From a bacterium (lineage in GTDB: Bacteria; CAIWAD01): a stretch of DNA of 64,000 bases. Every line of letters starts with the position of its first letter. The stretch's first letter is position 1. Below the pieces are notes generated by a model. The model was not told the DNA's origin, searched no databases, and saw only the letters and a list, made by a program, of their open reading frames with translations. Position numbers and translations under genes: made by a program. The stretch covers positions 24,822 through 88,821 of the forward strand of contig JAUXWS010000087.1 in the NCBI GenBank assembly GCA_030685015.1. Reading direction: 5' to 3'. Below, piece after piece: positions 3,255-31,083 of the stretch.

Positions 3255-3301
3255 GCTTCAATCAGTCCAAATAAAGCTGATTGTTCGAGTCCTGCTTACT
3301 C

Positions 3302-4456: not shown

Positions 4457-4479
4457 TGTTTCCCCTGTTTGATCGTGAA

Positions 4480-7585: not shown

Positions 7586-8640
7586 AGAGTGTCCCAATCT
7601 GCAATGCTCTGGAACCAATGCTTCCGCTCCCTCAACTGCGCGAGGTCCTCTTCGCCCAGGCCTGGAGCCGGTCGATAAACGGTGTAGAAACGTTTAGGTG
7701 CGAGGCCTGGCGCTAGGACCCGCATGCCCAGGCGGCGCAACTGGGCCTGCTGGCTCTGGCTGGCTACCACCGCCATCACAAGGTCTGCGCCCAGGTCATG
7801 CAGCGCTGTCAGGAGATCTACACCGCAGGCGATGAGGGCGTCGTCATCCATGCCGAGCCAGTCGACCAAGTACCCCACCTGCAAGCCCTCGCGCATCTCC
7901 AAGGCGCCCACCGCCCAGGCGAGCCCCCTGCCCTGCAGATCGGTGGCCAAACGCACCAAATATGGCGGACGTCCCGGCGTGGCGTAGCGCCAGTGGAGCC
8001 ATACCTCATCTCGCTGCTGTACCAAGCCGGGCCAATGGGCTTGGTGGGCTATCGCCACTTCCGCCAAGCGGGGATCATCCGGCTCGGCCTGTTCAACTCT
8101 TGTCCCTTGCACTGACGGCAAGCGTCCAATCACGAAACGCAGTGACCATGCACATGTGGAAGCTAACCAACGGGGCGCACGCCGTCGCAGCATCGACTCC
8201 GGCCGCCGGCTCCATACATGCAGGCGGCGTTCCCCAGGCTCTAAATAGCCAGCTTTGATAAAGCCGCGGCGACTGCGATCATTGGGCATGGTCCACACCA
8301 AAGCCGCCCCCCGCCGCCACGCCTCCTCCTCGCAAGCCTGCACCAAGGCCGAGAAGATGCCCCGACGACGGTAGTCGGGGTGTACCATCACACCCGTCAG
8401 GACGCCTGCAGTGACGGCCCGTCCCCCCAGTAGATGGGTCGTCAGCTCCATTGGCTGCATGCCTACGAGGTGGTCACCATCCACGGCCACTGACATTCCC
8501 TGCGCTCCGTCGCCCAAACCGAAGTGCCAATGGTCGAAGGCCGCCTGGGTCACCCCCGCCGTGCCATAGCAGGCAACGACCAGGGCGGCGACACCTGCCC
8601 GGTCGGCATGGGGGTCGACGGCACGAATCCGCCATGTCAT
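7582..8640 (-). CDS. GNAT-family N-acetyltransferase (two-domain, 352 aa)
   Basis: VMVHPDYRRRGIFSALVQACEEEAWRRGAALVWTMPND is a canonical GNAT acetyl-CoA-binding motif. Confidence 0.6.
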   Translation of the reverse strand: MTWRIRAVDPHADRAGVAALVVACYGTAGVTQAAFDHWHFGLGDGAQGMSVAVDGDHLVGMQPMELTTHLLGGRAVTAGVLTGVMVHPDYRRRGIFSALVQACEEEAWRRGAALVWTMPNDRSRRGFIKAGYLEPGERRLHVWSRRPESMLRRRAPRWLASTCAWSLRFVIGRLPSVQGTRVEQAEPDDPRLAEVAIAHQAHWPGLVQQRDEVWLHWRYATPGRPPYLVRLATDLQGRGLAWAVGALEMREGLQVGYLVDWLGMDDDALIACGVDLLTALHDLGADLVMAVVASQSQQAQLRRLGMRVLAPGLAPKRFYTVYRPAPGLGEEDLAQLRERKHWFQSIADWDTL

Positions 8641-8703
8641 GGGGTCCCTCCGCGGCCGGCCAACACATGGCCCTCTATTGTGCGCCGGCCGGTAGCGTGG
8701 ATC

Positions 8704-10581
8704 TCAGCCCTGTACATTGCCCACGGCGTCCAATTGTACTGCCCTCCTCGACGGGCAGGTCACCAGCCAGGTGGCCTTCTGGCCATCCTCGAACACGACG
8801 TCCACGGGAATGCTGGCGTGCTCCAGGGGAGCCGTGCTTTCCACGCGCAGGCCCTCGGCTGCAAAGGCAATCTTCACGCTGGCACGGTCGCTTAGCACGT
8901 CCCGCCAGTAGACACCCAAACCGTACACCGTGTTGATCCAGAAATCACCCGAAAATGCGTGCAGGACGTGGCGCAGGATGGCCTCGGTGAGCCGTGGTCC
9001 CACCCACCCCGTGAACTGCCGCATGTGCTGGTGGCACATGAAGATTACGGGGATGGCCTTGCGCATGGCGCGGTGAATCCAGAACAGGTTCATCCAATAA
9101 TGGAAGATGTGCTCGGGATCGCCGGGATAACGTTTGGTTAGCTCCACAGCCTGTCGAGCGCCCGGCGCCCAATGCGGGGGCGGCTGCAGCAGGACATTAT
9201 GCTTGGTCCGCACGTCGGAATCGGACAGCACTTCGCAGCCCGCCGCTTCCATGGCCTTGGGTGTGAAAGCATCGTTGGTGCGGTCGGGCATGGCCCAAGA
9301 TTTCGGCGTGAACCCGAAATGCAATTCGCTCATGCGCCGCATCTCCAGTGCGTTGTCGCGCTGCTCCGCCAGCGAACCTTCATTGTCGCTCAGCCACCGG
9401 TAACGGCCAGCACCCATGCGGGCGTCCAGCTTCCATCCGTTCTCCTCCGCCGTCGCTGTGTCCGTACCGTAATGCAGGTGGCCGTGGTTGCCTAGCTCGA
9501 TTAGATAGGGCAGGGAACTGTCGAAGGGATAGCTGGCGCGGTGCCGCAGCTCCACGTGTTCATTCATCCACGAGATGAAGCGCGGGATCTGGTCCGCGCC
9601 ACGGTCGATGCCGTAGTACGCGGCCCAGCGGGTCGCCTCCTCTTCATCCAGCGACAGCCGGGACGAGAGGTACATGGTTTGCGGCATGCGGTAGCGTGAC
9701 GCTATGTCAAAGGTCAGGGTCAGCCCCTCGATGGACTGACACGTAGAGGTGTCGTAAATATCCATGTCGCCACGCCAGGCGAAGGCTGATGTGCAGGCTC
9801 CGGGCCAGCGGGTAACAGCAGCCGATGTAATCCGGGGTGCCCGTGCGAGGACGGCCTCGACAGCCAAGTTGGCGCGCCAAGTGCTCTCGCCCCATTCGCA
9901 GGTCAAGTCGATGTGTGAGCTGGCAGCGGCGGCCACCGCCTCGAAGTCAAGATCCACGCGATGGATCTGGCCGGTCTTTAGCACTCCCAGCTGTCGTTCA
10001 GCTTCCCCCAACAACTTCACGCCATCCCCCGTGGCCACCCGCAAGCGCTGGGCGGTCTGCGTAGGAGTAATGGTGTGGTTGCCCACGACGACCTGCACGC
10101 GCCAGCGGCGGCCCACCGCCATTGTGCCCATGGAATACGAGGGGCGCCGCTGAGTGAAGGGACCTATAATAGTAAAGGTCAACTGCGGATGCATTGAAGG
10201 GGCGGGATAGGCACGGGCCAACCCGCGGCTGCAAGCAGCATTCGTCGGTTCGGGGCCGATTGTGTCCCGGGTGTTCCAGACTTCGTTCATGAACCGCCGT
10301 TCTTGGCGGGTTAACTGAAGCGACCATACTAGCAGAACAACTGATAAGGCCAAGACGAACACTACATCTAATCCTCCCCACCATAGGGCCAAGAGGCCGA
10401 CCATAACCGCCGCAGTCTCGAAGCGGTGCCGGGGAACACCCAGCTTTTTGGGTCCCACCTCGCCCACGATGTTGGCAATGTAGAACAGCCAGCCCAACCT
10501 ACCAGGAGCCAGCCAAACGAGGCGCTGCACCACATGGAAGGCCACCAATGCGATGCCCAAAAGCAGTTGAATCATCCTCAC
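8704..10581 (-). CDS. membrane-anchored polysaccharide deacetylase-like protein (3 N-terminal TM helices plus large extracytoplasmic domain)
   Basis: GTG start overlaps the TGA of the upstream gene (GTGA). Motifs AWRGDMDIYD and LGNHGHLHYG resemble NodB/deacetylase active-site regions. Confidence 0.5.
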   Translation of the reverse strand: MRMIQLLLGIALVAFHVVQRLVWLAPGRLGWLFYIANIVGEVGPKKLGVPRHRFETAAVMVGLLALWWGGLDVVFVLALSVVLLVWSLQLTRQERRFMNEVWNTRDTIGPEPTNAACSRGLARAYPAPSMHPQLTFTIIGPFTQRRPSYSMGTMAVGRRWRVQVVVGNHTITPTQTAQRLRVATGDGVKLLGEAERQLGVLKTGQIHRVDLDFEAVAAAASSHIDLTCEWGESTWRANLAVEAVLARAPRITSAAVTRWPGACTSAFAWRGDMDIYDTSTCQSIEGLTLTFDIASRYRMPQTMYLSSRLSLDEEEATRWAAYYGIDRGADQIPRFISWMNEHVELRHRASYPFDSSLPYLIELGNHGHLHYGTDTATAEENGWKLDARMGAGRYRWLSDNEGSLAEQRDNALEMRRMSELHFGFTPKSWAMPDRTNDAFTPKAMEAAGCEVLSDSDVRTKHNVLLQPPPHWAPGARQAVELTKRYPGDPEHIFHYWMNLFWIHRAMRKAIPVIFMCHQHMRQFTGWVGPRLTEAILRHVLHAFSGDFWINTVYGLGVYWRDVLSDRASVKIAFAAEGLRVESTAPLEHASIPVDVVFEDGQKATWLVTCPSRRAVQLDAVGNVQG

Positions 10582-11828
10582 GCGAAAGGTTCCCAGCTAA
10601 GTAGTTCGTAGGCTTGGCCCCTGGCCACAGCTTCGATGACGCGGACATAGCGGCCTAGGATGTCAGGTAGCAGGAGATGCTCTTGCACGAATCGTCGCCC
10701 GTTGCCTCCCATGGTATCGCGGACAGTGGGGTCCGCCGCCAAGTCCAGGATCGCAGCGGCGAGGCCCTTGGCGTCAAAGGCCGGCACTACGCGACCGGCT
10801 TGGTGGGCGGCTATGATTTCCGCCTGTTGTCCGCCCATGGCCGCGACAATGGGCTTGCCGGACCCCATGTAGTCCATCAGCTTGTTTTCGAAGTAAATGT
10901 GGATTAGCGGACTCTCGAAGAGCGACATAAGGCAGATATCGGCCGCCGCGATCAACCCGGGTATCCTACCTTTTGGCACAGGATCGTGGAAGTACACGTG
11001 TTGCAGCCCCAGCTCACGAGCCAGGGCTATGGCCCTCGGCTTGGTCTGTCCGTATCCGACAAAGTCGAAGCGGATGCCCCTGTCTGCCGGCACATAGGCA
11101 GCAGCCCGCACTAAGGTGTCCACGGCCGTTACTTCTGTGTGGGTACCAGTAAACAGGCATACAATCGAGCTGTCCCAACCTAAGGCGCGCCGCTGCTCTT
11201 TGCGCTCGCCTTCCTCAACCTTGAACAAGTCTGGGTCGAAGCCGTTGGGAAACACGTCCACACGTCGCGGATCTAACCCCTTGCGCAGCAGCTCGACCTT
11301 GATGCCCGGTGTAATAGAAACGATGCGGTCCGCGCTGTTGTACAAGGAGTTGGCTAATGCATGGAGAGGCCTAGCCTGCCATGAACGGATGGCCCCCTTG
11401 ACCTCAAGGGCGTCGGGCCAAAGATCCCTTACCTCCAGCAGCCAAGGTACCCCGTACTTGCGGGCCACTCGCCGGCCGGCCCAGGCGGCAAACAGGGGTT
11501 GCACGGAAGCCAGCACAATATCCGGGCGAGGCAACGTCGCCGCCACTTGGAGAGCGGGTCTGACATAGCCGAGATAGTTCTTCAAACGGGCGGCTAGGCT
11601 CCTACGCAAGCCAGAATGTTCCTTCACGCGATGGACAAAAACGCCTCCTCCGCTGATGGTGGAGATAGCCTCCTCCGGCTCCGCCTGCTCACTGTAGACG
11701 TTGAGGTCGCTGGCCACCACATGCACGTCATGCCCCGCATCAGCCAAGGCGACCGACAGTTTGCGGGGTTGCATGCTGCCTGGCGCTGCCGGGCCAGTAT
11801 AGTATTGCTTATACACGTGGATGATCAC
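10578..11828 (-). CDS. glycosyltransferase family 4
   Basis: Probable GTG start giving VIIHVYKQYYTGPAAPG...LADAGHDVHVV. The longer ORF start at 12116 would overlap the upstream aminotransferase by about 290 nt. Contains an EX7E-type C-terminal domain. Confidence 0.7.
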   Translation of the reverse strand: MIIHVYKQYYTGPAAPGSMQPRKLSVALADAGHDVHVVASDLNVYSEQAEPEEAISTISGGGVFVHRVKEHSGLRRSLAARLKNYLGYVRPALQVAATLPRPDIVLASVQPLFAAWAGRRVARKYGVPWLLEVRDLWPDALEVKGAIRSWQARPLHALANSLYNSADRIVSITPGIKVELLRKGLDPRRVDVFPNGFDPDLFKVEEGERKEQRRALGWDSSIVCLFTGTHTEVTAVDTLVRAAAYVPADRGIRFDFVGYGQTKPRAIALARELGLQHVYFHDPVPKGRIPGLIAAADICLMSLFESPLIHIYFENKLMDYMGSGKPIVAAMGGQQAEIIAAHQAGRVVPAFDAKGLAAAILDLAADPTVRDTMGGNGRRFVQEHLLLPDILGRYVRVIEAVARGQAYELLSWEPFA

Positions 11829-12958
11829 CTGCGGCACTCCCCGAAGGTGCGGATGCGATCGATCACCCGATGAATGTCGGAGTCCGTCAAGGCACTTCCC
11901 GAGGGCAGGCAAAGGCCGCCTGCGAAGAGCTGCTCGGCCACGGTGCTGCCGAAGCAGCGACTGCCGCGGAAGACAGGCTGCAAATGCATGGGCTTCCACA
12001 CGGGCCGGGTCTCGATATCGTCCGTCTCCAAGTGCAGGCGCAAGGTCTCTGGATCCACACCAAACTTGTCGACGTCGATCTGGATCACGGTGAGCCAGCG
12101 GTTGTGACCAGCCCACGGAGCCTCGGGCATGAAAGTAATGCCCGGCACATTATCCAAGCCTAGGCGATAGGCTTCGAAGATCCGCCGCCGTGCGGCCACA
12201 CGCACGGGCAGCACACGCAATTGCGCCAAGCCGATGGAGGCCAACACGTTGCTCATGCGGTAATTGTAACCCCACTCCTTGTGCTCATAGTATGGCTTGG
12301 GCTCACGTGCTTGCTGCGATAAGTTACGGGCGCGGTCTATTAGGTCCCTATTCGCCGAACAGAGCATACCGCCGCCCGAGCTGGTGATGATCTTGTTGCC
12401 GTTGAAGGAGAAGATGGCGGCGTCCGCGTCCAGTCCCACAGGCCGTCCTTTGTATGTGGTCCCCACCGCCTCTGCGCAATCTTGTAACACGGGGATGCCA
12501 CGCTCGCGGCAAAGGGCCAGTATGGGGTCCATATCTGCAGGATGGCCGTACAAGTCCGTGGGAACTACGGCAGACACGCGACGCCCTTCCCGTTCACAGG
12601 TTGCTAGAGCCTCCGCAAGGACGTGTGAATCCATGCACCAGCTCTCTCGATCCGCGTCCACGAAGGCCAGCTCGGCCCCTTGGTACAAGGCAGAGGCGAT
12701 GCTGCCGATGAATGTAAGCGTGCTGGCTAGCACTGTGGTTCCCGGCCCCACCCCAACAAGGCGCATGGCTAGATGCATAGCGGCCGTGCCACTGCATAAA
12801 GCCAGTGCATTCCCATGATCAAGTAGTTCACAGAATTCAAGTTCGAAGGCGTCGACCATGGGCCCCAGGGGTGCAATGTAATTCGATTCAAAGGCCTGTT
12901 GAACCAGAGCCAGTTCGGTGCCATGCATATGAGGTGGCGAGAGAAATAGTCTAGCCAT
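11825..12958 (-). CDS. DegT/DnrJ/EryC1/StrS (PglE-like) PLP-dependent sugar aminotransferase
   Basis: 377 aa. FSFNGNKIITSSGGGML carries the PLP lysine. Motif EWGYNYRMSNVLASIGLAQL. Confidence 0.85.
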   Translation of the reverse strand: MARLFLSPPHMHGTELALVQQAFESNYIAPLGPMVDAFELEFCELLDHGNALALCSGTAAMHLAMRLVGVGPGTTVLASTLTFIGSIASALYQGAELAFVDADRESWCMDSHVLAEALATCEREGRRVSAVVPTDLYGHPADMDPILALCRERGIPVLQDCAEAVGTTYKGRPVGLDADAAIFSFNGNKIITSSGGGMLCSANRDLIDRARNLSQQAREPKPYYEHKEWGYNYRMSNVLASIGLAQLRVLPVRVAARRRIFEAYRLGLDNVPGITFMPEAPWAGHNRWLTVIQIDVDKFGVDPETLRLHLETDDIETRPVWKPMHLQPVFRGSRCFGSTVAEQLFAGGLCLPSGSALTDSDIHRVIDRIRTFGECRR

Positions 12959-12961
12959 GGT

Positions 12962-15304
12962 TCACCTTTTCACGTTATAACGATACTTGGGGAAGAAACT
13001 CTCAGGCACATCATCAATTCCGTGCACGATCTGGTTGCGCTCGCAAAGGGTTTCGTAGGCGGCCCCATCCACAACAATCCGTTGCGTGCTATACGGATAT
13101 ATCACTTGTGAGAAGCCAAGTTTGAATTGAAAAAGCTCGTCATCACGGCCACCCAATCCTCCTCCCAAGTTAAGCCATTCGGCACCAGATTCCGCATAAT
13201 ACTCAAAAGCTTTGTAAAACATGAGTTTCGATGGCGCCCAGTTGAGATGGTCATCCGTGGTGCCGCCAAGGTGATATTGGACAATACCGCCAGTTCGCAC
13301 GAATAGACCACCGGCGACGACCTTTCCCGCTGGGTTCAGAACCGATATCAAAGCGACATTCGGGCTCAGAACACGACGAAAATCATCGAAATATGCCCCA
13401 CTGAAGAAGTAATAGCGAGCCGCATTGACTCGGGTCATTGTCTGCGCGTATAGTTTTTGAAATACAGTATAATCTTCCCAGTGGTTAATTCGGACTTCGA
13501 AACCAGCCTTCTGGAGTTTTCGGATTGCACGTTTGTGGCTGTTCCGCATGCCCTGCTCAAAAGTGGCCAGATCTTGCCGAAGATTGATCATTACAGTGTT
13601 GCCATGCTTGAAGATCTCCCCCATGGCGCTGGCTGTCTCTGAGAAACAGCCCAGCAACGGGTGGTTGCGGAGAAATAGTGATACAATGTTATTCTGATAG
13701 CAGTAATGTTTTAGAGCCTTCATCAACTCATTCACTTGTGATTCGAAAACAGCATAGACTAGTGGTCCAGGATAGCCATATGGACTATATGCATCCCAAA
13801 GTCTATTTTCGGTAAGAGTCGTTGGTACGAGCCGCAGCAGAAGTGGAACGAACAATTCAGTTTCCCCCAATGTGATGTGCAGTGCAAGTGAACGAACTTC
13901 TTCTTCGCGTGCGCATAGCTTAAGATAGCCCGGCAGGTGATAGAAGTCATGGGGCAATCTTCCCAACACACGTTCCAGCTCCGCAGGTTGATCCAACAAA
14001 TCCCGAATCCTGCTTCGAATTCTTAAGGCGGGCACCCCGACTCGAGTTTCATATCCTTCACTGTCAACGATCTGCACGCTACCCGCTCCGAGTATTGTCC
14101 AGGGACGGATCCGCAGCTGAGGCAATACGCAGCATCCAACTCCTGCGAAAACACCCTCCTCAATATTGGCACCACCGCCCAAATGGACCCCAGGACACAA
14201 GTGGACATGATTCTTAATCAGGCAGTCATGGTCGACACTGCAGGAAGTGTTGAGAATCACGTTGCAACCGATAGATGCTCCAGTATTGACCACAACTCCG
14301 GCTGCAATGAAGGTGCCCATTCCTATTGGAACATCATCGGCAATGACCGCCGAAGGATGGATTACTGCTCGAACTTGCACTCCAGATTTAACCAACCAAT
14401 GAAACACTGTCATCCTTAATTGGTTGCTGCCAAAACCAATGATAACACAGTCGCAGCCACCTGCGCCAAACATAGTTGAAGCGATCGGGCCATACACTGG
14501 CCGGCCAAGGCAAGTCTGGCCATGTAACTGAACATCGTCATCTAGAAATCCGACCAGTTGCAGTTCTCCACCCGACTTCTCGGTGCACAGCACGGCATCC
14601 CCGATCACCCGGCCATGCCCGCCAGCCCCTAGCACCATAATCCTAGTCTTGGGCGAATGACCAATAAACTCGGGCATGGTGGCGTACCTTGGATGGCTGA
14701 TGCCCTCCCTTCTCACCACAAGAGAAACGGTCTTCCAAAGAATCCAAAAGTCAAGCATCAGGGAGTGGCGCTCAACGTACTCCACATCGTGCTCGAAACG
14801 CTCCTCCCAACTCAAGGAGTTGCGGCCTCGGATCTGCGCCAAACCCGTAATCCCGGGCTTCACCTCATGGCGACGGGCTTGGCGCGGGGAATAGCGTGGA
14901 ATGTACTCGACCATCAAGGGGCGCGGACCCACCAAGCTCATCTTACCACGCATCACCAACAGCAATTCAGGCAGCTCGTCAAGCGATGTGGAGCGCAGCC
15001 ACGCGCCAAACGGAGGAATGCGCTCCTCATCTGGCAGCAGGCGGCCCTGTGCGTCACGGGCGTCCGTCATGCTGCGGAACTTGACCAGTTCGAACAAAAG
15101 CCCATGCAGCCCCGGCCGTGTTTGCCTGAATAGAACCGGACGCCCTAGTTTAAATGCGATGGCCAGGGCCAATCCCATGAACATCGGCGCGAGCAACACA
15201 AGGGCGACCGCCGAGGCGCCGATATCAAACAAGCGTTTACCTGCCCGCCGGTATAGCCCTTGGCGCTCTAACCGCGCGGACGCCCAGCCGGAATCTGGAA
15301 TCAC
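12962..15304 (-). CDS. tri-domain fusion: bacterial sugar phosphotransferase (PglC/WbaP C-terminal type), NeuD/PglD-like hexapeptide N-acetyltransferase, and FemAB-related acyltransferase domain
   Basis: Domain 1 is KRLFDIGASAVALVLLAPMF...SLVGPRPL...PGITGLAQI. Domain 2 is MVLGAGGHGRVI...hexapeptide repeats. Domain 3 is ...AARYYFFSGAYFDD...VQYHLGGTTDDHLNWAPSKLMFYKAFEYYAESGAEWLNLGGG. The likely start is a GTG overlapping the upstream TGA (GTGA at 15301-15304). The long N-terminal extension in the ORF table overlaps the upstream gene. Confidence 0.7.
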   Translation of the reverse strand: MIPDSGWASARLERQGLYRRAGKRLFDIGASAVALVLLAPMFMGLALAIAFKLGRPVLFRQTRPGLHGLLFELVKFRSMTDARDAQGRLLPDEERIPPFGAWLRSTSLDELPELLLVMRGKMSLVGPRPLMVEYIPRYSPRQARRHEVKPGITGLAQIRGRNSLSWEERFEHDVEYVERHSLMLDFWILWKTVSLVVRREGISHPRYATMPEFIGHSPKTRIMVLGAGGHGRVIGDAVLCTEKSGGELQLVGFLDDDVQLHGQTCLGRPVYGPIASTMFGAGGCDCVIIGFGSNQLRMTVFHWLVKSGVQVRAVIHPSAVIADDVPIGMGTFIAAGVVVNTGASIGCNVILNTSCSVDHDCLIKNHVHLCPGVHLGGGANIEEGVFAGVGCCVLPQLRIRPWTILGAGSVQIVDSEGYETRVGVPALRIRSRIRDLLDQPAELERVLGRLPHDFYHLPGYLKLCAREEEVRSLALHITLGETELFVPLLLRLVPTTLTENRLWDAYSPYGYPGPLVYAVFESQVNELMKALKHYCYQNNIVSLFLRNHPLLGCFSETASAMGEIFKHGNTVMINLRQDLATFEQGMRNSHKRAIRKLQKAGFEVRINHWEDYTVFQKLYAQTMTRVNAARYYFFSGAYFDDFRRVLSPNVALISVLNPAGKVVAGGLFVRTGGIVQYHLGGTTDDHLNWAPSKLMFYKAFEYYAESGAEWLNLGGGLGGRDDELFQFKLGFSQVIYPYSTQRIVVDGAAYETLCERNQIVHGIDDVPESFFPKYRYNVKR

Positions 15305-16506
15305 CTCATGAACTCCATCAAGACGCCCACCACTTCCCGCTGCTGGTCTTCCCGCAGTTCCGGGTAGATGGGAATGGCCAGGGACTGGTTGGCGGCGCAT
15401 TCGCTGACGGTAAAGTCGCCCGGGCCGTGACCCAGGTTGGCGAAGCAGTCCTGCAGGTGGAAGGGCACGGGGTAGTAGACCTCGTTGCCGATGCCGCGCG
15501 AGTTCAGGAAGGCGCGCAGCTCGTCGCGGCGGTCCACGCGCAGGACGAACTGGTTGTAGATGTGGCGGTCGCCCGGCCGCGCCCAAGGCAGGATCACGCC
15601 CCTGCGCCCCGCCATGTCAAGGGTCGCCGGGTCCAGGCCGGCCGGATCCACCACCAACCCGGCTTCCGCCAGCAGGCGCCGGTAGCGCTCGGCGTTGGCC
15701 TGGCGGGCCGCCGTCCACTCGTCCAGCTTGCCCAGCTTGACTGTGAGCACGGCCGCCTGGATGGCGTCCAGGCGGAAGTTGCCGCCGATGACGCGATGGT
15801 AGTACTTGGGCTTGCCCCCGTGGACGCGGAGAATCTCCAGGCGGGCGGCCCGCTCCTCGTTCTGGGTGACCACCATGCCGCCGTCCCCCACCCCGCCCAG
15901 GTTCTTGGAGGGGAAGAAGCTGAAGCAGCCGTACTGGCCCAGGCCGCCCACGCGCCGGCCCTGATACTCCGTGCCGATGGCCTGGGCGCCATCCTCGATG
16001 ACCGTCACGCCATGCCGGGCGGCGATCTCCACGATGGGGGCCAAGTCCGCACTCTGCCCGTACAGGTGGACGGGAATGATCGCCTTGGTGCGCGGCGTGA
16101 TGGCCGCCTCCAGGCGCGCCGGATCCAGGTTGAAGCTGCGCGGCTCGATCTCGACGAAGACCGGCGTGGCGCCCAGGCGGACCGGACAGCCGGCCGTGGC
16201 GAAAAAGGAGTAGGGCGGCGTGATCACCTCGTCCCCGGGGCCGACCCCCTCGGCCATGAGGGCGATGAGCAGGGCGTCCGTGCCGCTGGAGACGCCGCAG
16301 GCATGGGCGGCGCCCACATAGGCTCCCACCGCCTCTTCCAGCTCCTTCACCTTGGGCCCCAGGATGAAGTGTTGGGACTCCAGCACCTCCAGCACCGCCC
16401 GGTTGATCTCCTCGCGCTGGGTGGCGTACTGCGCCTTCAGGTCGAGCAGGGGAACACCCATCCTCAGCTTCCTTTCCTGTGCTCCTGGTCCAATGGTTTC
16501 GCTCAA
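15301..16506 (-). CDS. DegT-family aminotransferase (WbpE-like UDP-2-acetamido-3-oxo-glucuronate aminotransferase candidate)
   Basis: 401 aa. LLDLKAQY...GGMVVTQNEERAARLEILRVHG...GGNFRLDAIQAAVL. The real start may be the internal MGVPLLDL. Confidence 0.8.
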   Translation of the reverse strand: MSETIGPGAQERKLRMGVPLLDLKAQYATQREEINRAVLEVLESQHFILGPKVKELEEAVGAYVGAAHACGVSSGTDALLIALMAEGVGPGDEVITPPYSFFATAGCPVRLGATPVFVEIEPRSFNLDPARLEAAITPRTKAIIPVHLYGQSADLAPIVEIAARHGVTVIEDGAQAIGTEYQGRRVGGLGQYGCFSFFPSKNLGGVGDGGMVVTQNEERAARLEILRVHGGKPKYYHRVIGGNFRLDAIQAAVLTVKLGKLDEWTAARQANAERYRRLLAEAGLVVDPAGLDPATLDMAGRRGVILPWARPGDRHIYNQFVLRVDRRDELRAFLNSRGIGNEVYYPVPFHLQDCFANLGHGPGDFTVSECAANQSLAIPIYPELREDQQREVVGVLMEFMR

Positions 16507-17195
16507 GCTGTCAGCCGCCCGCCGTGGACGATCTCGTCGTAGAAGCGGCCGCCGTTGCGCAGCTCGTCGGGCAGCGGCGCCTCCTCGTCGAAATCCAGGC
16601 AGCGCAAGACGCCCGCCTCCACTTCGCGGTAACGCAGGCCGCTTTCCGGACAGGAGTAGACCCCCTCGGCGTCGGGCTGGCCCAGCGGCAGGCCGTGGCG
16701 GCTCACCCAGCCGATGCGGCGGGCGGGCACGCCCACCATCAGGGCGTAGTCGGGCACGCTCTTGGCCACCACGGCGCCGGAGCCGATGAAGCAGTAGCGC
16801 CCCAGTTCGATGCCGCAGACGATGGTGGCGTTGGCGCCCACGCTGGCGCCGCGACGGATGATGGTCGTCTCGTAGAGGCTGTGGCGGTTGATCTCGCTGC
16901 GCGGGTTGGTGACGTTGGTGAGCACGCAGGAGGGGCCCAGGAAGACATGGTCCTCGAGAATCACTCCCGAATAGATGCTGACGTTGTTCTGCACCTTGAC
17001 GCCGTCACCGATGACCACCCCGCCGTCCACGTTGACGTTCTGGCCGAAGACGCAGCGCCGGCCGATCCTCGCCCCCGTCATCACATGGCTGAAGTGCCAG
17101 ATCTTGGTTCCCTCGCCGATCTCGCAGGGTTCGTCCACCACGGCGGTGGGATGCGCGTAGTAAAGCTTTTCCGCCACACTCCTCTCCTTCATCAT
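16503..17195 (-). CDS. hexapeptide-repeat N-acetyltransferase (WbpD-like)
   Basis: Start MMKERSVAEKLYYAHPTAVVD. Left-handed beta-helix repeats (IGDGVKVQNNVSIYSGVILEDHVFLGPSCVLTN). Confidence 0.75.
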   Translation of the reverse strand: MMKERSVAEKLYYAHPTAVVDEPCEIGEGTKIWHFSHVMTGARIGRRCVFGQNVNVDGGVVIGDGVKVQNNVSIYSGVILEDHVFLGPSCVLTNVTNPRSEINRHSLYETTIIRRGASVGANATIVCGIELGRYCFIGSGAVVAKSVPDYALMVGVPARRIGWVSRHGLPLGQPDAEGVYSCPESGLRYREVEAGVLRCLDFDEEAPLPDELRNGGRFYDEIVHGGRLTA

Positions 17196-17259
17196 CTCAA
17201 TTGCGCCGCGGAGCCGTGGATTGTAATGAAAGGTCGAACATAAAGCTTCGCCACACGCC

Positions 17260-18366
17260 TCAGACACCTGCAGTCGCTATGATGCGTCCAGCCATGCGTT
17301 CCACTTTCTCCCCCAGGACCCGGGCCGTGGTCCATTTTCCCCCAAAGACAGATAGCAGGCGGCCTTCCTGCTCCAGCACGTACTCGCGGGTCGTCCGCCC
17401 CGGATTGGCGCTGCCGACATCCACCAGGGGGCGCAGTCCGGCGAAGCGCTCCCTGATCTCCGTGGCGCGCGCCGCCTGAATGAAGGCCGAGGCATGCACG
17501 CCCAGCAGGTAGTTTTCCTCCTCGCCCGAGCAGGCGATGGGCTCGGCCAACCCCTGCCGCACCTCGGTCGTGCCCAGCAGGGTGCCTCCCCGCCAGGGCA
17601 GGGCAAAGCAGATGCGCTCCTCACCCGGAACCTGGAGAAAGAAGCCGTCCGCCAGCGGACGATCCAAGACGAGGTGGCTGCCCCGCACCAGGTCCAGGCC
17701 ATGCCGGGCCGGCACGCCGGAACGGTCCAGCAGGTCCCGGCACCAGGGTCCGGCGGCGTTGACGATCAGGTCGGCCTGCCGCTCCTTGCCCGCCAGGAAG
17801 CTGCCGTCGACCGCCAGCCGCTCCACCGGCACCCCCTCATGGATGGTGGCCCCGGCGGCGCGGGCCTGATCGGCGGCCCAAAGGCCCAGGCCCTGATCAT
17901 CCATCTGCACATCGTAGAACAGGAAGCCCCCCTGCAGGCCCTCCGGCCTCAAATCCGGGGCACGCCGGACCAGGGCGGCGCGGGACAGCCAGGCATGCCG
18001 TCCGAGGGTGCGCCGTCCGGCCATCAGGTCATAGAGCAGCAAACCCAGGCGCAGGAGGAGGCGGCTGCGCGACACGCCCCGGTAGATGGGCAGGATGAGG
18101 CCGAGCGGCCGGGCCAGGTGCGGCGCCTGGGCCAGCCACCAGCTGCGCTCGCGCAGGCTTTCCCGCACCAGCCCGAACTCGCCCTGCTCCAGGTAGCGCA
18201 GTCCGCCGTGGATGAGCTTGGTGGAGGCGCTGCTCGTCTCCCCCATCAGGCGGCCGCGCTCGAAGAGCTCCACCTCGTGACCGGCCCGGGCCAGCGCCCA
18301 GGCGCTCATCACTCCGTTGATGCCGCCTCCCACCACCGCGATGCGCGCCCTGCGCTCCTGTGTCAT
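17260..18366 (-). CDS. FAD-dependent oxidoreductase (GlpD / 2-hydroxyglutarate oxidase-like DAO superfamily)
   Basis: N-terminal Rossmann IAVVGGGINGVMSAWALARAGHEVELFER and LIHGGLRYLEQ motifs. 368 aa. Confidence 0.65.
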   Translation of the reverse strand: MTQERRARIAVVGGGINGVMSAWALARAGHEVELFERGRLMGETSSASTKLIHGGLRYLEQGEFGLVRESLRERSWWLAQAPHLARPLGLILPIYRGVSRSRLLLRLGLLLYDLMAGRRTLGRHAWLSRAALVRRAPDLRPEGLQGGFLFYDVQMDDQGLGLWAADQARAAGATIHEGVPVERLAVDGSFLAGKERQADLIVNAAGPWCRDLLDRSGVPARHGLDLVRGSHLVLDRPLADGFFLQVPGEERICFALPWRGGTLLGTTEVRQGLAEPIACSGEEENYLLGVHASAFIQAARATEIRERFAGLRPLVDVGSANPGRTTREYVLEQEGRLLSVFGGKWTTARVLGEKVERMAGRIIATAGV

Positions 18367-18371
18367 GGCGA

Positions 18372-19457
18372 TCAGTACTCCAGGGGCAGGGAGACTTTCA
18401 CACCGTCCCGCGCGGAGCGGTAGGCGGCAACCAGCAGCTCAAGCGAGCGCAGGCCTTCGCGCCCGTCCGTCTCGGGCTCCGCCTCGCCGCGCAGGGTCCG
18501 GATCACATTGTCGTAATAGAGCGGGTGCCCGAAGCCGTACACGGAGGTGGTCTGGTAGCTTGCATCCTTGATGGTGGCGTCCTCGGGGCGCTGGTCGGCA
18601 AACTCCCAGTGCTGGATCTCGTTGACGGCCATGCCCCCCACCCGCACCGTGCCATGCTCGCCCAGGATGGTGATCGACCCCTCCATGTTCCTGGGATAGG
18701 ACAGCATGGTCACATTGAGGGTGCCCAGGGCGCCGCTGCGCCACTTGATCGACATCACGCCGCTGTCCTCCACCTCGATGCGGCGGGCCAGGGTGGCCGT
18801 GTAGGCGAAGACGCTCTCCACTGGTCCGATCAACCAGTCCACGAGGTCGACATAATGGCTGGCCTGGTTCATGAAAGCGCCGCCGTCGAACTCCCAGGTG
18901 CCGCGCCAGGCCGCCTGGTCGTAGTATTCCTGGGGGCGCGACCAGAAGACGTTGATGTTGACCATGTAGATGCGGCCGAACCTCCCCTGGCGCACGGCCT
19001 GCTTGAGCAACTGCAGCGTGGCGTTGCGGCGGTTCTGCTTGACGATGAAAAGGCGCCGCGCCATCTCATCACAAACCTGCACCATGCGCTTGCCCTCGGC
19101 CCAGGAGGTGGCCATGGGTTTCTCGCTCATGACGTGGCGTCCGGCCCGCGCCGCCTGAATGGCCTGGCTGGGATGAAGGCCGCTGGGAGTGCACAACACT
19201 ACCACGTCGGCGGGGCCGGCCTTGAGCAGCTCCGTCAGTCCGGCATAGCCGGCCGCCCCCGTTCTCTCCACCGCGCGCGCCAAGGCGGCGGGGTCCGTGT
19301 CGCAGACGGCTGCGATCTCGGCATGAGCGTCATGCTTCTCGATGGCACCAAAGTGGTTGGCGGCGATGCGGCCACACCCCACCACGGCGAAACGTATGTG
19401 CCGATGGGTGATGATTGCGGGGCTGCGCTCCATGTAGCTTCCTTCCATTCCTCTCAT
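18372..19457 (-). CDS. Gfo/Idh/MocA-family NAD-dependent oxidoreductase (WbpB-like UDP-GlcNAcA 3-dehydrogenase candidate)
   Basis: RFAVVGCGRIAANHF...VVVLCTPSGLHP...SEKPMA are classic family motifs. First gene of the long reverse operon. Confidence 0.75.
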   Translation of the reverse strand: MRGMEGSYMERSPAIITHRHIRFAVVGCGRIAANHFGAIEKHDAHAEIAAVCDTDPAALARAVERTGAAGYAGLTELLKAGPADVVVLCTPSGLHPSQAIQAARAGRHVMSEKPMATSWAEGKRMVQVCDEMARRLFIVKQNRRNATLQLLKQAVRQGRFGRIYMVNINVFWSRPQEYYDQAAWRGTWEFDGGAFMNQASHYVDLVDWLIGPVESVFAYTATLARRIEVEDSGVMSIKWRSGALGTLNVTMLSYPRNMEGSITILGEHGTVRVGGMAVNEIQHWEFADQRPEDATIKDASYQTTSVYGFGHPLYYDNVIRTLRGEAEPETDGREGLRSLELLVAAYRSARDGVKVSLPLEY

Positions 19458-19651
19458 TGGTTCAGCAAATTACGTTGTTTTGTCAATGGTGCCGCCGCGA
19501 CCAGCGCCGGCGACGAACTCGAAGGCCCCGGTCGTATCGGCAGCGCGTCGCGGACAATCCAGCCCGGGCAGGCCATCAAGGCACCTTGGTGGCATGACGA
19601 TAGCATTTGACGATTGGGCCATTGTGTCTGGGACAAGATGGAAAGGACCTC

Positions 19652-20614: not shown

Positions 20615-20637
20615 TCCGCGCACAAATCCGGACTCCC

Positions 20638-31076: not shown

Positions 31077-31083
31077 GCCGATC

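What the first reader, a model, noticed from the sequence alone, without database searches (positions are those of the whole stretch)
12962..15304. Single polypeptide fusing PglC-type sugar phosphotransferase, PglD/NeuD-type acetyltransferase and a FemAB-related acyltransferase domain
One 781-codon ORF carries three normally separate activities. The first is the initiating undecaprenyl-phosphate sugar-1-phosphate transferase (KRLFDIGASAVA...PGITGLAQI). The second is a hexapeptide N-acetyltransferase of the PglD/NeuD type. The third is a C-terminal domain resembling FemAB-related, EPS-locus-associated acyltransferases. Together with the adjacent PglE-like aminotransferase (11825-12958) this looks like a compacted bacillosamine-type initiation module. 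The extra FemAB-like domain suggests further N-acylation, possibly aminoacylation, of the 4-amino sugar. I am not aware of this three-way fusion as a described architecture.
Basis: partly seen in the sequence, partly recalled or inferred. Interest (0 to 1): 0.65.

Follow-up and report, generated by a model that had tools for sequence, protein, structure and literature searches.

The report
Three-enzyme fusion starting a surface sugar chain
One real, uninterrupted bacterial gene joins three enzymes that are normally separate (a membrane sugar-phosphate transferase, an acetyltransferase and a FemX-like aminoacyl transferase); it probably makes the lipid-linked, amino-acid-decorated first sugar of a surface polysaccharide, and it points to a large uncharacterised enzyme family that could explain how such sugars are made.

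Summary
Window 12962-15304 (minus strand) is an uninterrupted 780-codon ORF plus stop. Its GTG start overlaps the stop of the upstream gene.

It has three domains, and in each the catalytic residues I checked are intact:
- a PglC-type phosphoglycosyl transferase carrying the full diNAcBac-specificity fingerprint;
- a NeuD/PglD-type N-acetyltransferase;
- a complete FemX-like tandem-GNAT domain, whose only solved sequence relatives and closest structural relatives are aminoacyl-tRNA-dependent transferases.

The same ORF occurs in an identical independent assembly and in a 98% variant, so it is not a mis-assembly.

The exact three-way fusion was found only in this one 90% cluster, among 5.8 billion proteins and 1.84 billion cluster representatives. 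Its parts are a recurrent module, though. The Fem-like family (at least 549 species genomes) lies within 10 kb of a PglC-type transferase in 32 of 36 fully flanked loci and of a DegT aminotransferase in 30 of 36. It has fused independently to PglD, to the transferase and to DegT.

Most likely mechanism (inferred): Fem aminoacylates the 4-amino group of a UDP-4-amino-4,6-dideoxy-HexNAc, PglD acetylates the new alpha-amine, and the transferase loads the sugar onto undecaprenyl phosphate. The donor and the order of steps are untested.

Verdict: a new variant of a known kind, of moderate interest.

The parts
12962..15304 (-). Whole fusion gene: 780 codons plus stop. GTG start at 15304-15302, stop at 12964-12962.
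   Evidence: An identical ORF is in L001 and a 98% variant in L002. AF2 full-length model: mean pLDDT 92.0, pTM 0.73.
15313..15316 (-). Shine-Dalgarno-like GGAG, 8 nt upstream of the GTG start. The start overlaps the upstream stop (GTGA at 15304-15301), which suggests translational coupling.
   Evidence: Sequence read directly.
14654..15256 (-). Domain 1 (residues ~17-217): PglC-type monotopic phosphoglycosyl transferase. It has the Asp109-Glu110 dyad, the PRP motif at 127-129, the aromatic box Y134/Y138/W166/F170/F213, and G87-R-L-L-P91.
   Evidence: Pfam Bac_transf 8e-58. Gapless match to C. concisus PglC 8e37, E=3e-62. Fingerprint defined in PMC10186338 and mapped. Long N-terminal helix 17-52 in the model.
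13997..14653 (-). Domain 2 (residues ~218-436): NeuD/PglD/VioB-type left-handed beta-helix N-acetyltransferase with a PglD_N nucleotide-sugar-binding subdomain. The catalytic His359 lies in 'SVDHDC'.
   Evidence: TIGR03570 176 bits, above the 160.8 cut-off. PglD_N and Hexapep hits. N. gonorrhoeae PglD 4m98 at 3e-25, PerB and C. jejuni PglD; the His aligns with the PerB residue mutated in 4eaa/4eab. Position confirmed.
12965..13996 (-). Domain 3 (residues ~437-780): complete FemX-like tandem-GNAT domain. Y638, Y677, F727 and K728 align with FemX(Wv) Y215, Y254, F304 and K305.
   Evidence: Pfam FemAB and Acetyltransf_6 hits. Profile against PDB hits only aa-tRNA-dependent enzymes. AF2 model pLDDT 94.2. 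Foldseek top 26 hits are all aa-tRNA transferases, TM 0.63-0.71 for FemX and Sbb17/Sba18. Role of Lys305 from PMC12945691. Residue mapping.
11825..12958 (-). Downstream partner: a DegT/PglE/LegC-like PLP aminotransferase (377 aa), presumed to make the 4-amino group.
   Evidence: Pfam DegT 6e-89. Best NCBIfam match is the LegC family, 320 bits, below the 420 cut-off. Same position after PglD-Fem genes in L003, L010 and L069.
15301..19457 (-). Upstream genes of the same operon-like block: a DegT aminotransferase (15301-16506), a hexapeptide acetyltransferase (16503-17267), an FAD oxidoreductase (17260-18366) and a GFO/IDH/MocA oxidoreductase (18372-19457). I read these as a likely second, WbpB/E/D-like amino-sugar branch; that label is from my knowledge of the pathway.
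   Evidence: Pfam and NCBIfam.
19607..21600 (+). Two short-chain dehydrogenase/epimerase genes (19607-20614 and 20638-21600). They are the only candidates in the window for the required UDP-HexNAc 4,6-dehydratase, and the assignment is unresolved.
   Evidence: Pfam Epimerase/GDP_Man_Dehyd. NCBIfam scores are all below cut-offs. Only 23-29% identity to PglF-type dehydratases.
1914..11828 (-). Rest of the polysaccharide locus: GT4 (10578-11828), a 623-aa protein with no family hit (8704-10575), a GNAT (7582-8640), a deacetylase with DUF3473 (6716-7585), a second GT4 (5511-6719), a beta-helix protein (4480-5514), a pyruvyl transferase (3302-4456) and a Wzx-like flippase (1914-3254).
   Evidence: Pfam. 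Gene calls in L001.

Best explanation
This is a real trifunctional enzyme at the start of a flippase-dependent polysaccharide pathway. A PglC-type phosphoglycosyl transferase gene became joined, with no linker, to a pre-existing PglD-Fem two-domain gene immediately downstream of it.

Proposed mechanism:
1. A 4,6-dehydratase (not identified) and the adjacent DegT aminotransferase make a UDP-2-acetamido-4-amino-2,4,6-trideoxyhexose.
2. The FemX-like domain transfers an amino acid from an aminoacyl-tRNA onto the 4-amino group, using the conserved Phe727-Lys728 site.
3. The PglD-like domain acetylates the new alpha-amino group with acetyl-CoA, using His359.
4. The N-terminal transferase, held in the inner leaflet by its re-entrant helix, moves the finished phospho-sugar onto undecaprenyl phosphate.

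The product would be Und-PP-linked 2-acetamido-4-(N-acetyl-aminoacyl)amino-2,4,6-trideoxyhexose, which the GT4 enzymes then extend.

Shown here: the ORF, the three domains, the intact catalytic residues I checked, the folds, the conserved gene neighbourhood and the recurrent fusions.
Inferred: the acceptor, the donor, which amino acid is used, and the order of steps.

The confidence of 0.48 is for this whole mechanism; that the three-domain architecture is real I put at about 0.97.
For: ORF and assembly:
- The ORF is uninterrupted and has been assembled independently.
- In the part that differs between the two variants, 23 codon changes are synonymous and 13 are not.

Transferase domain:
- It matches PglC at E=3e-62 with no gaps. 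It has the DE dyad, PRP, 5/5 aromatic-box residues, GxLLP and the C-terminal extension, which together form the published diNAcBac fingerprint.

PglD domain:
- It scores above the TIGR03570 cut-off and keeps the catalytic His.

Fem domain:
- A family profile hits only FemX(Wv) (1e-9), Sba18/Sbb17 (6e-7; these aminoacylate the amino sugar streptothrisamine) and S. aureus FemX.
- The model has pLDDT 94. The top 26 Foldseek hits are all aa-tRNA-dependent: FemX and Sbb17/Sba18 at TM 0.63-0.71, then the MprF domains at about 0.47-0.57. Acetyl-CoA tandem GNATs reach only 0.32-0.44.
- The F-K pair that aligns with catalytic F304-K305 of FemX is invariant in 42 family members.

Genome context:
- Of 36 Fem-family loci with full 10-kb flanks, 32 have a PglC-like transferase, 30 have a DegT and 28 have both. 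Of those 28, 23 lack any PglD.
- The same is seen in Deinococcus, Anaerolineae and Syntrophotaleaceae loci that also carry PglF-type dehydratases.

Independent fusions (Rosetta-stone evidence):
- PglD-Fem: P0121 is colinear at 47% identity across residues 220-777, and many others exist.
- PGT-Fem: P0011.
- Fem-DegT: P0340.

Synteny:
- The order PGT | PglD-Fem | DegT, with the transferase unfused, is seen in L003, L010 and L069.

Chemical precedent:
- N-(N-acetyl-aminoacyl) 4-amino-4,6-dideoxy sugars are known in O-antigens.
Against: - No member of this Fem-like family has been characterised, and no paper linking it to bacillosamine-type sugars was found.
- The donor is not established. GNAT folds also use acyl-CoA, and the family has an invariant Gly-rich loop (GGGxGG) just before the F-K helix, which could bind a pyrophosphate.
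- No dedicated tRNA or aaRS genes lie near these loci. This is neutral, because Fem enzymes normally use housekeeping tRNAs.
- No PglF-type dehydratase is in the window.
- Most Fem-family loci lack PglD, so the acetyl-capping step is not general.
- Fusion to the membrane transferase would also fit action on the lipid-linked sugar.
- TIGR03019 (the PEP-CTERM FemAB equivalog) scores only 28.8 bits against a 260 cut-off.
Confidence: 0.48

Rival explanations
1. The architecture is the same, but the Fem-like domain is an acyl-CoA (or acyl-ACP) dependent N-acyltransferase. It would put a non-acetyl acyl group (for example 3-hydroxybutanoyl) on the 4-amino group. The PglD domain would acetylate a different amine, or would compete with Fem to give mixed N-4 substituents.
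For: - Pfam files the region under Acetyltransf_6, a GNAT family.
- The family has an invariant GGGxGG loop at the position where GNATs bind the CoA pyrophosphate.
- 4-N-(3-hydroxybutanoyl) bacillosamine is about as common in polysaccharides as the diacetyl form.
- No tRNA or aaRS genes are associated.
- In 23 of the 28 fully flanked loci that have both partner genes, the Fem-like gene occurs without any PglD, as a simple PglD replacement would.
Against: - Every PDB sequence hit and the top 26 fold hits are aa-tRNA-dependent enzymes. Acetyl-CoA tandem GNATs reach TM of only 0.32-0.44.
- The FemX catalytic Phe-Lys pair and two active-site tyrosines are conserved.
- The canonical GNAT R/Q-x-x-G-x-G/A motif is not matched (sequence read).
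- Repeated fusion to a PglD-type acetyltransferase is hard to explain if both domains acylate the same nitrogen.
Confidence: 0.2
2. The PglD domain makes ordinary UDP-diNAcBac and the transferase loads it onto the lipid. The Fem-like domain acts later, at the membrane, on the lipid-linked sugar or oligosaccharide. Its target could be an amine exposed by one of the DUF3473 deacetylases in the locus, or a hydroxyl group, by analogy with lipid II-dependent S. aureus FemX and with the HfsH/HfsK pairing.
For: - Fusion to the membrane-anchored transferase places Fem next to the Und-PP product.
- The diNAcBac fingerprint of the transferase is fully canonical.
- Deacetylase+DUF3473 genes lie in the window and directly after the closest PglD-Fem homologue.
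- HfsK, a FemX-like protein, is membrane-associated and has been proposed to re-acylate deacetylated holdfast sugar.
Against: - A deacetylase is found near only 1 of 80 Fem-family loci, whereas DegT is near 50 of 80, and 30 of the 36 fully flanked ones.
- A direct Fem-DegT fusion exists (P0340), which argues that Fem uses the amine made by the aminotransferase.
- Most family members are soluble stand-alone proteins of about 350 aa.
Confidence: 0.2
3. The fusion is an artefact (a mis-assembly, or a sequencing frameshift that removes a stop), or one domain is a decayed, inactive remnant.
For: - The GC content changes along the gene, from about 0.60 at the 5' end to 0.47-0.53.
- A recombination breakpoint lies inside the gene.
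- An out-of-frame TAG lies 4 nt before the Met223 codon at the PGT/PglD junction.
Against: - Two independent assemblies carry the same ORF, and a diverged variant keeps the frame. JGI and NCBI copies sit in the same cluster.
- The catalytic residues checked in all three domains are intact.
- pLDDT is above 90 in all three domains.
- Synonymous changes outnumber non-synonymous ones in the variable part.
Confidence: 0.03

Closest known systems
Bifunctional monotopic phosphoglycosyl transferases (BiPGT class), e.g. Neisseria gonorrhoeae PglB (PGT + PglD-type acetyltransferase)
   Same: An N-terminal PglC-type catalytic core is fused directly to a NeuD/PglD-type acetyltransferase. PglB is scored as a UDP-diNAcBac-specific PGT in PMC10186338, and the class is defined in PMC11626204. 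Hundreds of PGT-PglD proteins share 40-50% identity with residues 1-430.
   Different: Here a complete ~340-aa FemX-like domain follows the acetyltransferase. No other protein with all three domains was found outside this one 90% cluster.
Campylobacter PglF/PglE/PglD/PglC pathway (UDP-diNAcBac synthesis and transfer to undecaprenyl phosphate)
   Same: The transferase domain aligns without gaps to C. concisus PglC (E=3e-62) and has every fingerprint residue. The PglD domain matches C. jejuni PglD (1e-20). A DegT aminotransferase lies adjacent.
   Different: The enzymes are fused rather than separate. There is an extra Fem-like domain, and no PglF-type dehydratase lies nearby. The predicted product carries an amino acid at N-4.
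Weissella viridescens FemX (UDP-MurNAc-pentapeptide : L-alanyl-tRNA alanyltransferase)
   Same: It is the best sequence hit (1e-9) and one of the two best fold hits (TM 0.67-0.71; S. aureus FemX 6snr also reaches 0.71). Both have the tandem-GNAT fold without a coiled-coil insert, and the acceptor is a UDP-linked precursor. Y215, Y254, F304 and K305 are conserved.
   Different: Identity is only about 15-16%. The N-terminal GNAT half shows no sequence match, and the predicted acceptor is an amino sugar rather than a peptide lysine. The domain is fused to two other enzymes.
Orf11 / Sba18 / Sbb17 (aminoacyl-tRNA-dependent aminoacylation of the amino sugar streptothrisamine in streptothricin-type antibiotics)
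   Same: This is a Fem-fold enzyme that puts glycine from Gly-tRNA onto a sugar amine, the closest chemical precedent. Profile E=6e-7; Foldseek TM 0.63-0.66 normalised to the query and 0.74-0.77 normalised to the target.
   Different: It belongs to secondary-metabolite pathways in Streptomyces. The acceptor is not a nucleotide sugar, the protein stands alone, and identity is about 20%.
Uncharacterised PglD-Fem two-domain proteins (e.g. P0121, Calditrichaeota MAG, annotated 'NeuD/PglB/VioB family sugar acetyltransferase')
   Same: 47% identical and colinear across residues 220-777, including the domain junction. In L003, L010 and L069 the same unit sits between a small PGT gene and a DegT gene.
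   Different: The transferase is a separate gene, adjacent or overlapping, in those genomes. In the window it is in frame.
HfsK (Caulobacter holdfast) and CDR20291_0244 (C. difficile type B flagellin glycan locus)
   Same: Both are FemX-like tandem GNATs encoded in glycan loci, and both are proposed to N-acylate sugars.
   Different: Their functions are unknown too. No relationship to the PglC/PglE module has been reported for them, and I did not compare their sequences with this domain.

Membership tests
Monotopic phosphoglycosyl transferase, PglC-type (Pfam PF02397 Bac_transf) | Profile match above the curated cut-off across the whole catalytic core | tested here: met
   195.3 bits against a cut-off of 27; profile positions 1-178 of 179.
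Monotopic phosphoglycosyl transferase, PglC-type (Pfam PF02397 Bac_transf) | Asp-Glu catalytic dyad and PRP nucleotide-binding motif | tested here: met
   D109-E110 in 'SLDELP'; 'GPRP' at 126-129.
Monotopic phosphoglycosyl transferase, PglC-type (Pfam PF02397 Bac_transf) | N-terminal re-entrant membrane helix | tested here: inconclusive
   The AF2 model has one long helix over residues 17-52, preceded by basic residues (KR), with a Pro at position 40. Membrane topology was not computed.
UDP-diNAcBac-specific PGT subgroup (Anderson et al. 2023, PMC10186338) | Five-residue aromatic box, GLLLP-type loop motif and a ~14-residue C-terminal extension | tested here: met
   Y134, Y138, W166, F170 and F213 are all aromatic. 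G87-R-L-L-P91 is present. The alignment runs to the C-terminus of PglC. The authors' own HMM (cut-off 200 bits) was not available.
UDP-diNAcBac-specific PGT subgroup (Anderson et al. 2023, PMC10186338) | Transfer of the phospho-sugar from a UDP-bacillosamine-type donor to undecaprenyl phosphate | not testable with these tools
   Needs a UMP-release assay.
NeuD/PglB/VioB sugar N-acetyltransferase family (TIGR03570; Pfam PglD_N + Hexapep) | Profile match above the curated cut-off, including the N-terminal nucleotide-sugar-binding subdomain | tested here: met
   TIGR03570 176.3 bits against 160.8; profile positions 2-201 of 202. PglD_N positions 1-78 of 78.
NeuD/PglB/VioB sugar N-acetyltransferase family (TIGR03570; Pfam PglD_N + Hexapep) | Catalytic histidine on the beta-helix (PglD His125 is from my own knowledge; for PerB, the residue mutated in 4eaa/4eab) | tested here: met
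   His359 in 'SVDHDC' aligns with the His that is replaced in the PerB mutant structures 4eaa/4eab, and with 'IEHEC' of C. jejuni PglD.
NeuD/PglB/VioB sugar N-acetyltransferase family (TIGR03570; Pfam PglD_N + Hexapep) | Homotrimeric left-handed beta-helix with active sites at the subunit interfaces | not tested
   The monomer model shows the regular beta-helix over residues ~310-420. No multimer prediction was run.
FemABX aminoacyl transferases (Pfam PF02388; related PF13480 Acetyltransf_6) | Profile match above the curated cut-off | tested here: met
   FemAB 39.1 bits against 24, but covering only profile positions 306-383. Acetyltransf_6 39.5 bits against 22.
FemABX aminoacyl transferases (Pfam PF02388; related PF13480 Acetyltransf_6) | Tandem GNAT fold of about 330 residues | tested here: met
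   Model pLDDT 94.2. Foldseek TM 0.67-0.71 to FemX(Wv) over about 350 columns, probability 1.00.
FemABX aminoacyl transferases (Pfam PF02388; related PF13480 Acetyltransf_6) | Catalytic lysine (FemX Lys305) preceded by an aromatic residue | tested here: met
   F727-K728 align with F304-K305. The Lys is invariant in 42 family members.
FemABX aminoacyl transferases (Pfam PF02388; related PF13480 Acetyltransf_6) | Use of aminoacyl-tRNA as the donor | not testable with these tools
   Inferred only from homology. No tRNA or aaRS genes are co-located.
FemAB family XrtA/PEP-CTERM system-associated protein (TIGR03019) | Equivalog score above the cut-off | tested here: not met
   28.8 bits against a cut-off of 260.35. 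It is not a member of this equivalog.

The most novel reading that the evidence does not exclude
The C-terminal domain represents a large, uncharacterised family present in at least 549 species across Cyanobacteria, Chloroflexota, Planctomycetota, Nitrospirota, Acidobacteriota, Myxococcota, Deinococcota and others. Under this reading its members are aminoacyl-tRNA-dependent nucleotide-sugar aminoacyl transferases. They would take the place of PglD in bacillosamine-type pathways, or act just before it, and would be the missing enzymes that build N-aminoacyl and N-(N-acetyl-aminoacyl) amino sugars of surface glycans. That would link charged tRNA directly to polysaccharide synthesis. The fusion in this window would be the most compact form of that pathway.
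Probability: 0.4. Interest if true: 0.75.

Novelty: new variant of a known kind. Interest (0 to 1): 0.55.

Why it matters
Amino sugars that carry amide-linked amino acids (N-acetyl-alanyl, N-acetyl-glycyl, hydroxybutyryl-alanyl and others) have been reported in O-antigens and capsules for decades. To my knowledge, the enzymes that attach the amino acid have not been defined.

This gene and its relatives give a concrete, testable candidate. It is a FemX-like domain tied to the aminotransferase, the acetyltransferase and the initiating transferase of a bacillosamine-type pathway, both by conserved gene neighbourhood and by three independent kinds of gene fusion.

If the tRNA dependence is confirmed, it would extend non-ribosomal use of aminoacyl-tRNA from peptidoglycan, membrane lipids and antibiotics to surface polysaccharides in many phyla.

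The three-way fusion is also a convenient reagent. The soluble PglD-Fem part can be expressed alone, and the full protein offers a single-polypeptide route to a lipid-linked modified sugar. It also extends the catalogue of multi-domain phosphoglycosyl transferases.

Tried and rejected
1. Mis-assembly or frameshift: rejected. Independent assemblies carry an identical ORF, and a 98% variant keeps the frame.

2. Membership of the PEP-CTERM FemAB equivalog TIGR03019: rejected, at 28.8 bits against a 260 cut-off. The rest of the window (25-64 kb) is housekeeping, and no XrtA/PEP-CTERM genes were seen among the ORFs scanned.

3. A PglF-type dehydratase in the window: none. There is only 23-29% identity to two generic SDR genes.

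4. Dedicated tRNA genes near Fem-family loci: none in the window and 3 in 40 loci, which I do not regard as enrichment (no statistical test was run).

5. Other constant partners of the Fem family were all rare:
- CapK-like adenylating enzyme, 2/80
- ATP-grasp, 5/80
- methyltransferase, 3/80
- DUF3473 deacetylase, 1/80
- the window's 623-aa unknown protein and its GNAT, 0/80

6. A second PGT+PglD+Fem protein: every hit of 750 aa or more in the top 150 of the 1.84-billion-representative search was domain-scanned, or its domains were already known. None has all three domains.

7. Technical dead ends:
- The 42-sequence alignment was too diverse for the search for related loci; a 10-sequence alignment worked.
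- The O'Toole 2021 PNAS survey of PGT fusions is not in the held library, so I could not check whether it lists a Fem-type fusion partner.
- Literature searches for PGT+FemAB and PGT+Acetyltransf_6 found nothing, and aminoacyl-tRNA+bacillosamine gave three papers, none of which by its title links the two.

Full report
**1. The observation**

The feature is on the minus strand. The maximal open frame is 12962..15586.

The start is a GTG at 15304. It overlaps the TGA of the upstream DegT gene (AGGTGA) and has GGAG 8 nt upstream. The next gene's ATG (12958) follows the stop after 3 nt. The gene therefore sits in a tightly packed, probably translationally coupled block.

NCBI's own annotation of the source MAG (MDP2361520.1, 'NeuD/PglB/VioB family sugar acetyltransferase [bacterium]') starts 24 codons later, at 756 aa. 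That start would remove the basic N-terminal stretch that aligns with residues 1-8 of PglC, so I prefer the GTG.

**2. Domains**

Pfam finds five families, all above the curated cut-offs:
- Bac_transf, residues 23-197, 8e-58
- PglD_N, residues 221-304
- Hexapep
- Acetyltransf_6, residues 586-716
- FemAB, residues 661-736

NCBIfam places residues 222-426 in the NeuD/PglB/VioB family above its cut-off. The match to the PEP-CTERM FemAB equivalog is far below cut-off.

*Transferase domain.* Against solved structures it aligns without gaps to Campylobacter concisus PglC (E=3e-62). It keeps:
- the Asp-Glu dyad (D109-E110) and the PRP motif;
- all five aromatic-box residues (Y134, Y138, W166, F170, F213);
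- the GxLLP loop;
- the C-terminal extension.

Anderson et al. showed that these features together mark UDP-diNAcBac-specific transferases.

*Middle domain.* It matches N. gonorrhoeae PglD (3e-25), PerB and C. jejuni PglD. It keeps the catalytic histidine, H359 in 'SVDHDC'.

*C-terminal domain.* These 341 residues form a complete unit. Many stand-alone proteins of 340-360 aa align over 97-99% of it at 38-44% identity.
- A 42-sequence profile of this family hits only aminoacyl-tRNA-dependent enzymes in the PDB: Weissella FemX (1e-9), Sba18/Sbb17 (6e-7) and S. aureus FemX.
- An AlphaFold2 model of the domain has pLDDT 94.2.
- Its top 26 Foldseek matches are all aminoacyl-tRNA transferases. FemX and Sbb17/Sba18 score TM 0.63-0.71, followed by FemA, S. 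aureus FemX and then the MprF synthase domains. Acetyl-CoA tandem GNATs reach only TM 0.32-0.44.
[quoted passage not shown] Together with Phe304 it aligns with F727-K728, and the Lys is invariant in the family. FemX Y215 and Y254 are also matched.

*Whole protein.* The full-length model has mean pLDDT 92.0. Confidence is low only at residues 1-9 and at the PGT/PglD junction (about 200-220). The PglD/Fem junction is confident.

**3. It is not an artefact**

A Logan assembly from a different run (SRR13727517) is identical over 9637 nt.

A 98% variant from SRR13051708 has the same 780-codon frame. Its 65 differences all lie upstream of window position 14897, and the 2.5 kb downstream is identical. 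That pattern is a recombination mosaic. Within the ORF the differences are 23 synonymous and 13 non-synonymous codons.

JGI copies on contigs of up to 40 kb fall in the same 90% cluster.

**4. Context in the window**

Positions 1.9-24.4 kb form a polysaccharide locus. Its genes, in order, are:
- a flippase, a pyruvyl transferase and a beta-helix protein;
- two GT4 genes, a deacetylase with DUF3473, a GNAT and a 623-aa protein with no family hit;
- the LegC/PseC-like DegT (11825-12958), then the fusion gene;
- a second DegT, a hexapeptide acetyltransferase, an FAD oxidoreductase and a GFO/IDH/MocA oxidoreductase;
- on the other strand, two SDRs, a UDP-GlcNAc 2-epimerase and an acyltransferase.

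The rest of the window is housekeeping. No PglF-type dehydratase is present. The locus has lower GC than its surroundings: the PglD-Fem part is 0.47-0.53, against 0.60-0.72 on either side.

**5. How rare is the architecture, and where does it come from**

In the 5.8-billion-protein search, only the protein's own 90% cluster has all three domains.

The phmmer scan of 1.84 billion 50%-cluster representatives gave 86,651 hits, and none of the top 150 has PGT+PglD+Fem. I domain-scanned every hit of 750 aa or more whose domains were not already known. The best match in 185,579 species genomes is only 42% identical in the Fem domain.

The pairwise and other multi-domain combinations are common:
- PGT-PglD, in hundreds of proteins;
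- PGT-PglD-DegT and PGT-PglD-GT4, and four-domain proteins of about 1200 aa;
- PglD-Fem, including reversed and duplicated forms;
- PGT-Fem;
- Fem-DegT (P0340).

The closest relative, P0121, is a PglD-Fem protein. It is 47% identical and colinear across residues 220-777, including the junction. In L003, L010 and L069 a small PGT gene abuts or overlaps the start of a PglD-Fem gene, and a DegT follows.

The window's gene is therefore best read as that arrangement with the PGT stop lost. The two domains meet with essentially no linker, and an out-of-frame TAG lies 4 nt before the Met223 codon. That last point is a weak hint only.

**6. What the Fem-like family does**

The family was found in at least 549 species genomes across many phyla.

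| Neighbour within 10 kb | Loci with full flanks (n=36) |
|---|---|
| PglC-like transferase | 32 |
| DegT | 30 |
| Both | 28 |
| Both, with no PglD-type acetyltransferase | 23 of the 28 |

Of 59 neighbouring transferases, 17 have the full aromatic box and 12 more have 4 of 5 residues.

Stand-alone members in Deinococcus radiotolerans, an Anaerolineae MAG and a Syntrophotaleaceae MAG sit among PglF-type dehydratase, DegT and small PGT genes. No other partner recurs, and there are no dedicated tRNAs.

The constant partners are the enzyme that makes a sugar amine and the enzyme that loads a bacillosamine-type sugar onto the lipid. The Fem domain has fused independently to each of them and to PglD.

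The simplest reading is that Fem acylates the amine made by DegT. Where PglD is also present, a free amine must remain for it, which fits an aminoacyl group whose alpha-amine is then acetylated. Sugars of exactly this type are known in O-antigens: 4-(N-acetyl-D-alanyl)amino-, N-acetylglycyl- and N-(3-hydroxybutyryl)-L-alanyl-4,6-dideoxyglucose, and the 3-amino analogues. The Gly-tRNA-dependent aminoacylation of the amino sugar streptothrisamine by Orf11 (PMC12945691), together with the solved streptothrisamine complexes of the related Sba18 and Sbb17, provides an enzymatic precedent.

**7. Mechanism and its status**

Shown:
- the ORF, its domains, the folds and the conserved catalytic residues I checked;
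- the neighbourhood statistics;
- the fusions.

Inferred:
1. DegT, with an unidentified dehydratase, gives a UDP-4-amino-4,6-dideoxy-HexNAc.
2. Fem transfers an amino acid from aminoacyl-tRNA to N-4.
3. PglD acetylates the alpha-amine.
4. The transferase moves the phospho-sugar to undecaprenyl phosphate.

I put about 0.97 on the architecture being real and about 0.45-0.5 on this full mechanism.

The main rivals are an acyl-CoA donor (0.2) and action of Fem on a lipid-linked or deacetylated acceptor after ordinary diNAcBac synthesis (0.2). The Gly-rich loop before the F-K helix and the membrane tethering keep these rivals alive.

**8. Comparison with what is known**

The protein belongs to the BiPGT class and works like Neisseria PglB with an extra module. 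The Fem domain meets the fold and catalytic-residue criteria of the FemABX family. It is not a member of TIGR03019, and its tRNA dependence is untested.

FemX-like proteins in glycan loci have been noted before (HfsK, C. difficile CDR20291_0244), but their functions are unknown. I found no paper that describes a PGT-Fem fusion or links this family to bacillosamine-type sugars. The key survey of PGT fusions (O'Toole 2021) was not available to me.

**9. Verdict**

This is a real, very rare three-domain variant of a known class of fused initiating enzymes. The fusion itself is a modest curiosity. The more valuable result is the comparative evidence that a widespread, uncharacterised FemX-like family is an integral part of bacillosamine-type amino-sugar modules, which makes the origin of N-aminoacyl amino sugars directly testable.

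Interest 0.55. Novelty: new variant of a known kind.

Noticed in passing
window 12385-15742 compared with L002: The 98% variant differs at 65 positions, all between 14897 and 15742 (the upstream DegT and codons 1-136 of the fusion). It is 100% identical over the remaining 2.5 kb. This is a sharp recombination breakpoint inside the transferase domain.
   Followed up: partly
window 12800-14600 and 2001-6000: GC falls to 0.47-0.53 in the PglD-Fem part of the gene and in the flippase/pyruvyl-transferase/beta-helix genes. Neighbouring genes are at 0.60-0.72. This suggests that parts of the locus were acquired horizontally.
   Followed up: partly
window 8704-10581 (minus strand): A 623-625-aa protein in the middle of the locus has no Pfam or NCBIfam hit. 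No homologue was found near any of the 80 Fem-family loci.
   Followed up: partly
window 17260-18366 (minus strand): An FAD-dependent oxidoreductase resembles the N-terminal ~370 residues of glycerol-3-phosphate dehydrogenase (272 bits, below the 360 cut-off). It is inserted between the GFO/IDH/MocA oxidoreductase and the hexapeptide acetyltransferase, an odd member for an amino-sugar operon.
   Followed up: no
window 15232-15304: NCBI's annotation of this protein (MDP2361520.1, 756 aa) starts at a TTG 24 codons downstream of the GTG used here. It names the protein only as a NeuD/PglB/VioB acetyltransferase, so the transferase and Fem domains are invisible in the public name.
   Followed up: partly
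window 14639-14650: At the PGT/PglD junction the sequence is GACTAGGATTATGGTG. It holds an out-of-frame TAG 4 nt before the Met223 codon and an AGGA just upstream. This may be a relic of the ancestral stop and start of two separate genes, or an internal start that could also yield a free PglD-Fem protein.
   Followed up: no
proteins P0255, P0265, P0293, P0260, P0266, P0273, P0340: The Fem-like domain occurs in many other multi-domain forms: PglD-PglD-Fem, Fem-PglD-PglD, PglD-Fem-Fem, Fem-Fem, Fem-PglD (reversed order) and Fem-DegT. Tandem Fem domains would fit addition of two amino acids in succession.
   Followed up: partly
window 6716-7618 and 23514-24374; L088 5856-6643; L010: Two polysaccharide-deacetylase+DUF3473 genes lie in the window. 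The closest PglD-Fem homologue (P0121) is followed directly by one, and L010 also has one. Across 80 Fem-family loci, however, this pairing is rare (1/80).
   Followed up: partly
L005 6716-7621; L006 10498-11391: A class I methyltransferase lies near the stand-alone Fem-like gene in two unrelated loci. It could N-methylate the added group, but it is not a general partner (3/80).
   Followed up: partly
window 26001-32000: GC is very high (0.71-0.75) and AT skew strongly negative (-0.15 to -0.19). ORFs overlap on both strands, including a 1236-codon frame at 25549-29259. Only the ABC transporter (29214-31076) and a TauE-like exporter were annotated.
   Followed up: no
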